DNA of 64,000 bases from Escherichia coli (GTDB lineage: Bacteria; Pseudomonadota; Gammaproteobacteria; Enterobacterales; Enterobacteriaceae): assembly GCF_044324785.1 (NCBI RefSeq), contig NZ_CP172127.1. One strand, 5' to 3'. A program made the position numbers. Positions 18,501 through 21,500 of the stretch are shown one piece after another (within the stretch, counting starts at the first letter, position 1; each line of letters begins with the position of its first letter).

Positions 18501-21500
18501 TTTCAGCAGTTGCTGCATCGGCACTTTTCCTGACGGGAAACGTGACGGATCGTAGTTGGTGTTAGCAGAGATCGACTGATCGATAAATTTCTGCATGATA
18601 CCCACCAGTTGCAGGTAGCCATCGTTACCCGGCATTTCCCACAGCAGCTCATAGGCGTCGTGCAGGTGTTCATAGTCAGGCACCACCTGGCGCAGAATAC
18701 CGTCTTTCGACGCTTTGATGCTGACGTAACCGCGCGGCGGTTCAATACCGTTAGTGGCGTTAGAGATCTGCGAAGAAGTCTCTGACGGCATCAGAGCAGA
18801 AAGCGTGGAGTTACGCAGGCCGTGCGTTTTGATTGACTCACGCAGTGCTTCCCAGTCGTAATGCAGCGGCTCATTAGCGATGGCATCCAGATCTTTCTTA
18901 TAGGTATCGATCGGCAGGATCCCTTTCGCGTAAGTGGTTTCGTTAAACCACGGGCACGCGCCTTGCTCTTTCGCCAGCTCATTAGAGGCTTTCAGCAGGT
19001 AATACTGAATGGCTTCGAAGGTTTTATGCGTCAGGTTGTTGGCGCTGCCGTCGGAGTAGCGTTTACCGTGCTTCGCCAGGTAGTAAGCGAAGTTGATCAC
19101 ACCAATACCCAGCGTACGACGACCCATCGCTCCACGTTTGGCGGCCGGGATCGGGTAATCCTGATAGTCCAGCAGCGCGTCGAGTGCGCGTACCGCCAGA
19201 ATCGCCAGCTCTTCCAGTTCATCCAGGCTATTAATTGCGCCCAGGTTGAAAGCAGACAGCGTACACAGCGCGATTTCACCGTTCTCGTCGTTGACATCAT
19301 TCAGCGGTTTGGTCGGCAGGGCGATTTCCAGGCACAGGTTAGACTGGCGCACTGGCGCGATGGCCGGATCAAACGGGCTATGGGTATTGCAGTGGTCAAC
19401 GTTCTGAATATAGATACGACCGGTAGACGCACGTTCCTGCATCATCAGCGAGAACAGCTCAACGGCTTTCACACGCTGCTTGCGGATGCTGTCGTCTTTC
19501 TCATATTTGGTGTACAGGCGTTCAAACTCTTCCTGATCGGCGAAGAACGCGTCGTACAGCCCCGGTACGTCGGACGGGCTGAACAGAGTGATATCTTCAC
19601 CTTTCAGCAGACGGGTATACATCAGTTTGTTGATTTGTACCCCGTAGTCCATATGACGCACGCGGTTGCCTTCCACACCACGGTTGTTTTTCAACACCAG
19701 CAGGCTTTCCACTTCCAGATGCCACATCGGGTAGAACAGCGTTGCCGCACCGCCGCGCACGCCGCCCTGAGAGCAGGATTTCACCGCTGTCTGGAAATGT
19801 TTGTAGAACGGAATGCAGCCGGTATGGAACGCTTCGCCACCGCGAATCGGGCTACCCAGCGCACGAATACGCCCGGCGTTGATGCCGATCCCGGCACGCT
19901 GGGAAACATATTTCACAATCGCGCTGGAGGTGGCGTTGATGGAATCCAGGCTGTCGCCGCACTCGATCAGTACGCAGGAGCTGAACTGACGAGTCGGGGT
20001 ACGCACGCCGGACATGATTGGCGTCGGCAGCGAAATTTTAAATGTGGAAACCGCGTCGTAAAAACGCTTCACGTATTGCAGGCGCGTTTCACGCGGGTAG
20101 TTCGAGAACAGGCACGCAGCAACCAGAATATAAAGGAACTGGGCGCTTTCGTAGATTTCGCCTGTCACGCGGTTCTGTACCAGATATTTGCCTTCCAGCT
20201 GCTTAACGGCAGCATAAGAGAAGGTCATATCACGGTCGTGATCGATAAACGTGTCCATCTGCTTGAACTCTTCTTCCGTGTAGTCTTCCAGCAGATGATT
20301 ATCGTATTTGCCCATCTCGACCATTTTCACCACGTGGTCGTACAGCGCAGGCGGCTCAAACTGGCCGTAGGCTTTTTTACGCAGGTGGAAGATCGCCAGG
20401 CGCGCGGCGAGATACTGATAATCCGGCGCATCACGGGAGATCAGGTCTGCGGCAGCCTTGATAATGGTTTCGTGGATGTCAGAGGTCTTGATACCGTCAT
20501 AAAACTGAATGTGGGAGCGCAGCTCGACCTGGGAAATCGAAACGTTATGCAGTCCTTCTGCCGCCCAATCCAGAACGCGATGGATTTTGTCGAGATTGAT
20601 GCGCTCTGTGCTACCGTCGCGCTTTGTCACCAGCAGATTCTGATTCATGTATGTCGTACCTGTTTTTGGAATTCTTTCCGCAATAGTTTCATGCAGACTA
20701 CCTGTAGTAAGGGAAGCTGCTTAGAACACTATATATAGGGGGTATGTTTGGGATTCACTGCAAGATAGTGTGAAAATGGCCCTCTTGCAAGTGCATAACT
20801 TTGTGGATAACTCAGGAAGGAAAAAGTGGCTTTCGCGCACCTTAGGTCAGACAAGGTGTCCGGGAAAGTCAATGGGAAGAGAAAAATTTGTTAAAAATAA
20901 CTGTTCGGCGATTTCTTGAACGGAAGAATAGGTTAGATAAATTGATATAGATGGTTTATTAATCTTTTGGCTAATGATTGCAAAAATTGATCTAAGCACG
21001 AATCATCACATAATCTGATGTATCAGTTCTGGTCAATATATAAGCGAATGTAAGCGATTGTTGATATCGAAATGGTTGTTTTCTCTTCGGTTATTGTTAA
21101 ATGCGAAGCCATTTTGTTAATTTACCTTATATTATAAGAAAATTATTCATTACTTTAATTCAGTTTAAATATAACTAATATCCCTTAAGGTGATTAACTT
21201 GAATTATGACGCATTGATATTATTCATCAAATAATAACAAAATAGCCATTGCACGGGGTTGAACAATTTACAAAAGAAAAATAACCCATATCGTATAATG
21301 CGATTAAATACGCCGTCTTATATAAAATGATGGTCAGATTAATATGCGGATTATTTTTCTACGCAGGGGGTATTTATCTTTACTCCCGTCAATGATTGCG
21401 TCTCTTTTCTCTACTAACGGTGTCGCGGCGGCCATTGATTTATGCCAGGGATATGATATCAAAGCGAGTTGTCACGCCAGCAGGCAAAGCCTTTCAAGCT

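What the first reader, a model, noticed from the sequence alone, without database searches (positions are those of the whole stretch)
20850..21343. About 500 bp of strongly AT-rich, ORF-free DNA upstream of the yfaL autotransporter
The interval between the nrdA control region and the yfaL start is visibly AT-rich with many A/T tracts and no ORF of 60 aa or more. This is the signature of a curved, nucleoid-protein-bound (H-NS type) silenced promoter, consistent with cryptic expression of yfaL-type adhesins. It could also hide a small RNA or small protein.
Basis: inference. Interest (0 to 1): 0.2.

Follow-up and report, generated by a model that had tools for sequence, protein, structure and literature searches.

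The report
Known H-NS-bound yfaL promoter island
The AT-rich, gene-free DNA in front of the E. coli adhesin gene yfaL is real, but it is an already described 'promoter island' that the nucleoid protein H-NS coats and keeps quiet, so it is an ordinary, previously explained feature.

Summary
Window 20850-21343 is 70.2% A+T, the lowest-GC stretch of its size in the 64 kb, and has no ORF of 60 aa or more. It lies in the 695-bp divergent spacer between nrdA (-) and yfaL (+).

The interpretation also holds, but it is published. The K-12 orthologue (96.4% identical, no indels) is one of the 78 E. coli "promoter islands" (Panyukov & Ozoline 2013). That paper scores it as H-NS-bound in all the ChIP-chip studies it compiled. 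A genomic SELEX study marks it as an RNA-polymerase site overlapping an H-NS site.

My analysis adds that the spacer has two modules:
- **20649-20922:** the nrdA control region (NrdR, DnaA and HusR boxes). It is at least 95% identical in all E. coli chromosomes.
- **20923-21343:** the AT-rich part (GC 0.28). It holds all nine promoter-like sites, evolves much faster, and keeps its length and composition but almost no sequence in other Escherichia species. Relatives where ubiG abuts nrdA lack both it and yfaL.

I found no sRNA or small-protein signal. The annotated 47-aa ypaB overlaps the first 70 bp but shows no coding constraint.

Verdict: already known, low interest.

The parts
18363..20648 (-). 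nrdA (class Ia ribonucleotide reductase alpha subunit), the left flank of the divergent spacer
   Evidence: 761-aa ORF. RefSeq annotation of the matching E. coli loci. 99-100% aa identity across Escherichia.
20649..20922 (.). Conserved nrdA control module: 5'UTR, core promoter, NrdR boxes, DnaA boxes and HusR boxes
   Evidence: At least 99% identical in 4019 E. coli records and 95-99% in 1406. 89-97% identical in E. albertii, E. whittamii and Escherichia sp. E1V33, and in three of the four non-standard alleles homology stops sharply at spacer position 274 = window 20922. [quoted passage not shown]
20726..20771 (.). Two NrdR-box-like palindromes (ACACTATATATAGGGG at about 20726-20741; CACTGCAAGATAGTGT at about 20756-20771) over the nrdA transcription start region
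   Evidence: Read by eye against the NrdR box consensus as I recall it. NrdR binding to two boxes at nrdAB is reported in PMC12176259. The positions were not tested here.
20776..20919 (+). ypaB, an annotated 47-aa ORF overlapping the nrdA promoter on the opposite strand. It is probably not a conserved protein-coding gene.
   Evidence: Annotated in RefSeq and in K-12 as b4605. No Shine-Dalgarno sequence. ATG changed to CTG in the B2-like allele. In-frame stop at codon 18 in E. albertii, E. whittamii and E1V33, and substitutions mostly nonsynonymous (5/5, 5/7, 6/8, 17/20). No Pfam or NCBIfam family.
20790..20810 (-). Two DnaA boxes: a perfect TTATCCACA (reverse complement of 20802-20810) and TTATGCACT, 8/9 (reverse complement of 20790-20798)
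   Evidence: Sequence. The P1 genome annotation describes the homologous E. coli segment as 'containing two predicted DnaA boxes'. DnaA binding at the nrdA promoter is cited in PMC12176259.
20813..20863 (.). HusR (YnfL) boxes: CAGGAAGGAAAAAGTG (20813-20828) and CAGACAAGGTGTCCGG (20848-20863). The second overlaps the first bases of the finding.
   Evidence: Exact matches to the box sequences listed for the ypaB/nrdA SELEX peak in PMC12844172, Table 1. Sequence.
20923..21343 (.). AT-rich module (GC 0.28): a promoter island and H-NS platform linked to yfaL
   Evidence: GC 0.22-0.36 per 50 bp. All 9 sigma-70-like sites of the 1-kb scan lie at 20987-21294, against 3.4+-1.7 in shuffles. Curvature peak at 20976-20990. 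Present in 5423 of 5426 E. coli genomes, but none at 99% or more, 1921 at 90-95% and 1032 at 80-90%, with no annotated feature beneath it. The published promoter island with H-NS occupancy maps here.
20987..21014 (+). Candidate distal yfaL-direction promoter, TTGATC-16-CATAAT
   Evidence: Found by the consensus scan. The same hexamers are given for the yfaL side of the spacer in Shimada et al. 2014, Table 1. It is a prediction only; no transcription start data were seen.
21267..21299 (+). Candidate proximal yfaL promoter elements: TTTACA (21267-21272), TATCGT (21289-21294) and a perfect TATAAT (21294-21299)
   Evidence: Consensus scan hit TTTACA-16-TATCGT. TTTACAA is one of the few blocks shared with the diverged alleles of other Escherichia species. 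Which element is used is not known.
21344..25102 (+). yfaL/ehaC, an AIDA-I-family autotransporter adhesin and the gene served by the AT-rich module
   Evidence: 1252-aa ORF. RefSeq annotation. Only 62-79% aa identity to other Escherichia alleles. Reported under positive selection (PMC9110714).

Best explanation
The interval is the yfaL-side part of the divergent nrdA-yfaL control region. Its core (20923-21343) is an AT-rich, intrinsically bent 'promoter island'. It carries many overlapping sigma-70-like sites on both strands that bind RNA polymerase. Its composition also makes it a nucleation and spreading platform for H-NS. H-NS occupancy keeps transcription from these sites, including yfaL transcription, low under laboratory conditions, so the YfaL adhesin is cryptic unless silencing is relieved or bypassed. 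AT-binding regulators such as GadX and GadE are candidates for relieving it. The module belongs evolutionarily to yfaL, a lineage-restricted and fast-evolving surface-protein gene inserted between ubiG and nrdA in Escherichia. It abuts a sharply delimited, highly conserved nrdA control module (20649-22) that is regulated separately by NrdR, DnaA, HusR and others.

Status of each step:
- **Shown here:** composition, curvature prediction, promoter-like site density, the two-module conservation pattern, and the absence of yfaL and of the AT-rich block in outgroups.
- **Taken from the literature on the K-12 orthologue:** RNA polymerase and H-NS binding, and promoter-island status.
- **Inferred:** that H-NS is the cause of yfaL crypticity, and that the same holds in this strain.
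For: - **Composition:** GC 0.298, the minimum of the 64-kb window.
- **Promoter-like sites:** 9 against 3.4+-1.7 expected, all within 20987-21294.
- **Curvature:** predicted mean in the top 1% of windows.
- **Published promoter island:** 2342143_534 yfaL/ypaB with H-NS code 'A', i.e. all the ChIP-chip data sets compiled (PMC3661553). The coordinates are in U00096.2 and map to about 20859-21392.
- **SELEX:** RpoD site marked HNS between yfaL and nrdA, with the hexamers found at 20987-21014 (PMC3946193).
- **Orthology:** the K-12 spacer is 96.4% identical with no indels.
- **Lineage restriction:** yfaL lies next to nrdA only in Escherichia. In Enterobacteriaceae bacterium LSJC7 and in Morganella, ubiG abuts nrdA and the spacer GC is 0.33-0.49 rather than 0.21-0.29.
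- **Composition kept, sequence lost:** the AT module keeps its length (~420 bp) and GC (0.21-0.29) but only about 50% forced-alignment identity in other Escherichia species.
- **Divergence within E. coli:** the AT module is far more diverged than the adjacent nrdA module.
- **Crypticity and regulators:** yfaL needs an inserted constitutive promoter for a phenotype (PMC3764049; PMC5595812). GadE and GadX are reported as yfaL regulators (PMC4918353). H-NS is also reported as a repressor of nrdAB (PMC4009431; PMC12176259).
Against: - No H-NS occupancy or expression data exist for this particular strain. The argument rests on homology to K-12.
- I found no paper that measures yfaL mRNA in an hns mutant, so the causal link between H-NS and yfaL crypticity is inferred.
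- The high-affinity H-NS motif TCGATAAATT is not enriched. There are two weak matches at 20934 and 20985, and the window-wide count is within chance.
- The curvature model used parameters from memory and shows no helical phasing of A-tracts.
- Published H-NS repression of nrdAB means the H-NS signal over this spacer could partly serve nrdA rather than yfaL.
Confidence: 0.8

Rival explanations
1. The AT-rich DNA is mainly an upstream activating region of the essential nrdAB operon. On this view it holds Fis sites, UP-like A/T tracts and cell-cycle elements, and yfaL silencing is incidental.
For: IciA, Fis and DnaA are named as activators, and H-NS and NrdR as repressors, of E. coli class Ia RNR genes (PMC4009431). 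The curvature peak at 20883-20892 and the HusR boxes lie at the nrdA-proximal edge of the finding. From memory, not checked here: Fuchs and co-workers described upstream Fis sites and an AT-rich element needed for nrd expression.
Against: In three of four other-species alleles, conservation linked to nrdA ends at 20922, about 165 bp upstream of the presumed nrdA start site. Beyond that point the sequence diverges with the yfaL allele while NrdA stays 99-100% identical. Species with ubiG directly upstream of nrdA have no comparable AT-rich block; their GC is 0.33-0.49. At most the first ~70-140 bp of the finding can belong to nrdA control.
Confidence: 0.12
2. The interval hides a functional small RNA or small protein gene, either ypaB or an unannotated one.
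For: RefSeq and K-12 annotate ypaB (47 aa), which overlaps 20850-20919. ypaB signal rises in stationary phase in a HusR-dependent way (PMC12844172) and after AZT treatment (PMC11228462). P1-family phages keep a homologous ORF, upfO.
Against: - **ypaB:** in-frame stop in three Escherichia species; substitutions mostly nonsynonymous and spread evenly over codon positions; start codon lost in the B2-like allele; no Shine-Dalgarno sequence; no family match.
- **AT module:** no ORF longer than 29 aa and none with a Shine-Dalgarno sequence; no Rfam hit with E below 2; no terminator-like site; RNA folding z-scores of -0.59 and -0.96; no annotated feature in more than 5400 genomes.
- **Transcript signal:** it can be explained by divergent or antisense transcription from the nrdA promoter region.
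Confidence: 0.05
3. The region is functionless spacer DNA that became AT-rich through mutational bias and relaxed selection. Protein binding to it is a by-product.
For: It diverges fast. No E. coli genome is 99% or more identical to this strain's copy, and about 1000 are only 80-90% identical. Alignable sequence is nearly lost in other Escherichia species.
Against: - Its length (~420 bp) and extreme composition (GC 0.21-0.29) are kept in every Escherichia allele despite sequence turnover.
- It is retained in 5423 of 5426 genomes.
- It is far more AT-rich than other non-coding gaps of the window, whose mean GC is 0.45.
- It must contain the yfaL promoter.
- It is bound by RNA polymerase and H-NS.
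Confidence: 0.05

Closest known systems
E. coli 'promoter islands' (Shavkunov/Panyukov/Ozoline; 78 loci in MG1655), specifically island 2342143_534 yfaL/ypaB
   Same: It is the same locus, the orthologue of the K-12 island. It is at least 300 bp with an abnormal density of promoter-like sites on both strands. It is AT-rich, H-NS-bound, poorly productive in transcription, and next to a gene predicted to be foreign (PMC3661553).
   Different: Nothing essential differs. This strain's copy differs by about 3.6% in sequence. I used a simple hexamer scan, not PlatProm.
H-NS xenogeneic silencing of AT-rich regulatory regions of cryptic surface-factor genes
   Same: The upstream DNA is AT-rich and curved. 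The gene is lineage-restricted and fast-evolving. It is not expressed in the laboratory unless a promoter is inserted. H-NS occupancy is published.
   Different: For yfaL itself I found no published hns-mutant derepression experiment. yfaL is core to E. coli, present in 5423 of 5426 genomes, rather than a strain-specific island.
The rcsD-(micF)-ompC spacer in the same window (46150-46888)
   Same: It is the other long AT-rich non-coding gap of the window (739 bp, GC 0.342), next to the ompC porin gene. Shimada et al. also mark the ompC/micF spacer HNS.
   Different: From memory, that spacer holds a known sRNA gene (micF) and OmpR sites and is actively transcribed. The yfaL spacer shows no RNA-gene signal.
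nrdAB regulatory region (NrdR, DnaA, Fis, IciA, H-NS, HusR)
   Same: It shares the spacer. The first ~70 bp of the finding contain the distal HusR box and lie in the conserved nrdA module.
   Different: The AT-rich bulk of the finding lies outside the block that co-varies with nrdA, and it is absent where yfaL is absent.

Membership tests
Promoter island (Panyukov & Ozoline) | A stretch of at least 300 bp with an extreme density of predicted transcription start points on both strands | tested here: met
   9 sigma-70-like sites (5 on +, 4 on -) within 20987-21294, against 3.4+-1.7 in dinucleotide shuffles. I used a simple consensus scan, not the original PlatProm. The K-12 orthologue is island 2342143_534 in the published list.
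Promoter island (Panyukov & Ozoline) | Binds RNA polymerase but yields little full-length RNA | not testable with these tools
   Published for the class (PMC3661553 abstract). An RpoD holoenzyme SELEX site lies in this spacer (PMC3946193). No transcript data were examined here.
Promoter island (Panyukov & Ozoline) | Occupied by H-NS in vivo | not testable with these tools
   Published code 'A' (all ChIP-chip studies compiled) for the K-12 island, and the 'HNS' mark in Shimada 2014. Applied to this strain through 96.4% identity.
Promoter island (Panyukov & Ozoline) | Association with a horizontally acquired gene | tested here: met
   yfaL is absent between ubiG and nrdA in Enterobacteriaceae bacterium LSJC7 and in Morganella, and present only in Escherichia loci. 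The first ~900 bp of yfaL are low in GC at 0.40-0.47. The published table flags foreign-gene predictions for this island. Closer outgroups such as Salmonella and Citrobacter were not sampled.
H-NS-silenced (xenogeneic-type) promoter | A+T content well above the genome average | tested here: met
   GC 0.28-0.30 against 0.52. It is the lowest in the window.
H-NS-silenced (xenogeneic-type) promoter | Intrinsic curvature or high-affinity H-NS nucleation motif | tested here: inconclusive
   Predicted curvature is in the top 1%, but with parameters from memory and no A-tract phasing. The TCGATAAATT-like motif is not enriched.
H-NS-silenced (xenogeneic-type) promoter | Derepression of the downstream gene in an hns mutant | not tested
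   No paper with yfaL expression in an hns background was found. [quoted passage not shown]
Small protein gene (ypaB) | Intact ORF and start codon conserved in related species | tested here: not met
   Codon 18 is a stop in E. albertii, E. whittamii and Escherichia sp. E1V33. ATG is changed to CTG in the B2-like E. coli allele, where RefSeq does not annotate the gene.
Small protein gene (ypaB) | Substitutions biased to synonymous sites, and a ribosome-binding site | tested here: not met
   Nonsynonymous/synonymous counts are 5/0, 5/2, 6/2 and 17/3, spread evenly over codon positions. There is no Shine-Dalgarno-like sequence upstream.
Small regulatory RNA | Match to a described family, an intrinsic terminator, or significant conserved structure | tested here: not met
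   The best Rfam E-values are 2.2 and 8.7, far below the gathering scores. There are 0 terminator-like sites. Folding z-scores are -0.59 and -0.96.

The most novel reading that the evidence does not exclude
The spacer may be a two-part mosaic with a functional boundary at about 20922. On one side is an ultra-conserved nrdA control module. Its DnaA/HusR-box segment (20772-20901) is also carried by P1-family phages next to hot. On the other side is a composition-conserved but sequence-free 'silencer cassette' that is exchanged or diverges together with yfaL alleles. If so, selection acts on A+T content and length rather than on sequence. The bound factors at the boundary (DnaA, HusR, RNA polymerase at PnrdA) would then act as a barrier that stops H-NS spreading into the essential nrdAB promoter.
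Probability: 0.15. Interest if true: 0.4.

Novelty: already known. Interest (0 to 1): 0.12.

Why it matters
It matters little beyond confirmation. The locus is a textbook-style example of H-NS coating an AT-rich regulatory region of a lineage-restricted adhesin gene, and it is already catalogued as a promoter island. Two points are useful for annotation. First, the AT-rich block belongs to yfaL, not to nrdA. Second, ypaB should be treated as a doubtful gene whose conservation reflects the nrdA promoter and DnaA-box DNA beneath it. The sharp conserved/variable boundary next to an essential operon could serve as a natural test case for how H-NS filaments are kept away from neighbouring housekeeping promoters.

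Tried and rejected
- **Rfam scan:** permissive scan of 20300-21700 gave only chance-level hits, snR71 at E=2.2 and RAGATH-27 at E=8.7.
- **Terminator scan:** none found.
- **RNA folding of both strands of the AT module:** not different from shuffles.
- **Small ORFs:** none with a Shine-Dalgarno sequence in the AT module. The only SD-like hit is a 22-aa GTG ORF at 20826 inside ypaB. There were no Pfam or NCBIfam matches for YpaB or for three small ORFs.
- **H-NS motif TCGATAAATT with up to 2 mismatches:** 68 matches in the window against 56+-7 expected, and only two weak ones in the interval. Uninformative.
- **Repeats:** only short two-copy direct and inverted repeats typical of AT-rich DNA. 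I did not recognise the 45-bp nrd inverted repeat that I recalled from the older literature.
- **AA/TT 10-11-bp periodicity:** not significant, 38% of shuffles were as strong.
- **Papers not held:** Cendra et al. 2013 (H-NS and nrd genes) and Roux et al. 2005. The Kahramanoglou 2011 supplements are not held either. The H-NS occupancy evidence is therefore second-hand, through the compilation in PMC3661553.
- **Outgroup sampling:** the genome-contig scan with a degenerate NrdA N-terminal pattern returned only 13 loci. It did not sample Salmonella, Citrobacter or Klebsiella, so the outgroup evidence rests on LSJC7 and Morganella.
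Full report
**Setting.** The window is E. coli DNA but not K-12; the best complete-genome match over this region is 99.0%. nrdA occupies 18363-20648 on the minus strand and yfaL/ehaC occupies 21344-25102 on the plus strand. The two genes are divergent, and the finding (20850-21343) is the yfaL-proximal 494 bp of their 695-bp spacer.

**Observation.** The interval has GC 0.298, against 0.52 for the window. It is essentially the GC minimum of the whole 64 kb: only 0.07% of 494-bp windows are as low, and the minimum of 0.285 starts at 20865. W-tracts of 6 or more are five times denser than the window average. No ORF reaches 60 aa, which is expected at this composition. Two refinements apply. 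RefSeq and K-12 annotate a 47-aa ORF, ypaB, at 20776-20919 (+), which overlaps the first 70 bp. Conservation analysis also places the true start of the AT-rich block at 20923. A wedge-model curvature calculation, with parameters recalled from memory, puts the interval in the top 1% of the window. Peaks lie near 20883-20892, 20976-20990 and 21325. The end-to-end/contour ratio is 0.477, against 0.856+-0.088 elsewhere, and there is no helical phasing of AA/TT.

**What is already published.** The K-12 spacer is 96.4% identical to the window's, and both are 695 bp.
- Panyukov & Ozoline 2013 list, among the 78 MG1655 "promoter islands", the entry 2342143_534, yfaL(-)/ypaB(-), in U00096.2 coordinates. 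Using the K-12 annotation and the offset between the two K-12 sequence versions as I recall it, this maps to about window 20859-21392, almost exactly the finding.
- Its H-NS code is "A", meaning bound according to all the ChIP-chip studies they compiled (Grainger, Kahramanoglou, Oshima). It is also flagged as associated with genes predicted to be foreign.
- That paper describes such islands as binding RNA polymerase, forming open complexes, yielding little full-length RNA, and being covered by H-NS.
- Shimada et al. 2014 independently list the yfaL/nrdA spacer as an RpoD-holoenzyme SELEX site overlapping an H-NS site. They give the yfaL-side hexamers TTGATC-16-CATAAT, which I find at 20987-21014.
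- H-NS is also named as a repressor of nrdAB, and GadE and GadX are named as regulators of yfaL.
- YfaL phenotypes are obtained by inserting a constitutive promoter in front of the gene. The adhesins found in the original screen are described as not expressed under standard laboratory conditions.

**What the sequence comparison adds.** The spacer has two modules.
- *nrdA control module (20649-20922).* It holds the nrdA 5'UTR and promoter, NrdR-box-like palindromes, a perfect and an 8/9 DnaA box (20790-20810), and the two HusR boxes (20813-20828 and 20848-20863). It is at least 99% identical in 4019 E. coli records and 95-99% in 1406.
- *The boundary.* In the alleles of 'E. coli' SCPM-O-B-8794, Escherichia sp. 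E1V33 and E. whittamii, blastn homology is 89-97% up to spacer position 274 (window 20922) and then stops. In E. albertii it runs to position 343.
- *AT-rich module (20923-21343).* It contains all nine sigma-70-like sites of a 1-kb scan, against 3.4+-1.7 expected. It is present in 5423 of 5426 E. coli genomes. None is 99% or more identical; 1921 are at 90-95% and 1032 at 80-90%. No feature is annotated under it in any listed genome.
- *Other Escherichia species.* A block of the same length and composition (GC 0.21-0.29) occupies the same place. It shares only about 50% identity in a forced alignment, with a few short common blocks, e.g. AAAATTGAT, GAGCGAATGTAA and TTTACAA.
- *Linkage to yfaL.* YfaL is only 62-79% identical between these alleles, while NrdA is 99-100% identical. 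yfaL has also been reported to be under positive selection.
- *Outgroups.* In Enterobacteriaceae bacterium LSJC7 and in Morganella, ubiG lies directly upstream of nrdA, yfaL is absent, and the spacer GC is 0.33-0.49.

The AT-rich block therefore belongs to the lineage-restricted yfaL unit, not to nrdA. What is conserved is its composition and size rather than its sequence. That is what one expects of an H-NS platform or promoter island.

**Hidden genes.** I found no support for an sRNA. There is no Rfam hit better than E=2, no terminator-like site, and folding energies on both strands are indistinguishable from shuffles. No small ORF in the AT module has a Shine-Dalgarno sequence. ypaB fails as a conserved coding gene on several counts:
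- Its ATG is CTG in the B2-like allele, where RefSeq does not call it.
- Codon 18 is a stop in three Escherichia species.
- Substitutions are overwhelmingly nonsynonymous and evenly spread over codon positions.
- It has no Shine-Dalgarno sequence and no protein-family match.

Its DNA is conserved because it lies over the nrdA promoter and DnaA boxes. A CRISPRi study reached the same conclusion. The "ypaB" RNA signals reported in some studies are compatible with divergent transcription from this region.

**Mechanism and confidence.** The best explanation (about 0.8) is that 20923-21343 is the yfaL regulatory region, organised as an AT-rich, bent promoter island. It recruits RNA polymerase at many sites and is coated by H-NS, which keeps yfaL cryptic. 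Relief would come from AT-binding activators or environmental signals. The rivals are an nrdAB upstream activating region (0.12; at most the first 70-140 bp), a hidden sRNA or small protein (0.05), and functionless drift (0.05). The untested steps are H-NS occupancy in this strain and derepression of yfaL in an hns mutant.

**Verdict.** Interest is low.

Noticed in passing
window 20772-20901; L018 (phage P1 NC_005856.1) 1201-1315; L002 (plasmid pPBS4-p1) 4001-4139: P1-family phages and phage-plasmids carry a 115-140-bp copy of the nrdA-upstream DnaA-box/HusR-box segment, which is the ypaB ORF. There are 235 plasmid places among the E. coli genomes, plus P1, P7, SJ46 and others. Identity is 95% in P7 and SJ46 and 83% in P1. 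In P1 the segment is annotated as upfO and sits just upstream of hot, the Pol III theta homologue. The P1 record already notes the homology to an E. coli region with two DnaA boxes. Why phages keep this piece is unexplained.
   Followed up: partly
window 20776-20919 (+): ypaB (b4605), annotated in most E. coli genomes, behaves as a non-coding overlap of the nrdA promoter. It has a premature stop in E. albertii, E. whittamii and E1V33, has lost its ATG in the B2-like allele, shows mostly nonsynonymous changes, and has no Shine-Dalgarno sequence. It is a candidate for removal from annotation.
   Followed up: yes
window 20922/20923: There is a very sharp homology break. It falls three bases after the ypaB stop codon. 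To its left the nrdA-side DNA is 89-97% identical in other Escherichia species. To its right the yfaL-side DNA is almost unalignable. In E. albertii the break lies about 70 bp further on. This could be a recombination junction or a functional boundary.
   Followed up: partly
window 20668-20680 (nrdA 5'UTR); L003: The B2-like allele (e.g. strain THO-003) has a 13-bp deletion (GGAATTCTTTCCG) in the nrdA leader. Its AT-rich module is also 14% diverged. About 1000-1100 complete genomes carry this allele class.
   Followed up: no
window 46150-46888: This is the second AT-rich non-coding gap of the window (739 bp, GC 0.342). It lies between rcsD (-) and ompC (+). From memory, it is the micF/ompC regulatory region, and Shimada et al. 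2014 also mark the ompC/micF spacer as an H-NS site. It is known biology.
   Followed up: partly
H65, NZ_CP133811.1 (E. coli EC2001) about 1591742-1591979: In this genome the AT-rich module matches in two separate places with a 'hypothetical protein' annotated. This suggests an insertion, possibly an IS element, inside the yfaL upstream region. Such insertions could activate or disrupt yfaL.
   Followed up: no
window 21344-22300: The first ~900 bp of yfaL are also low in GC (0.40-0.47, against 0.52-0.62 further into the gene). This fits H-NS-bound DNA extending into the 5' coding region; the published island also reaches about 50 bp into yfaL.
   Followed up: no
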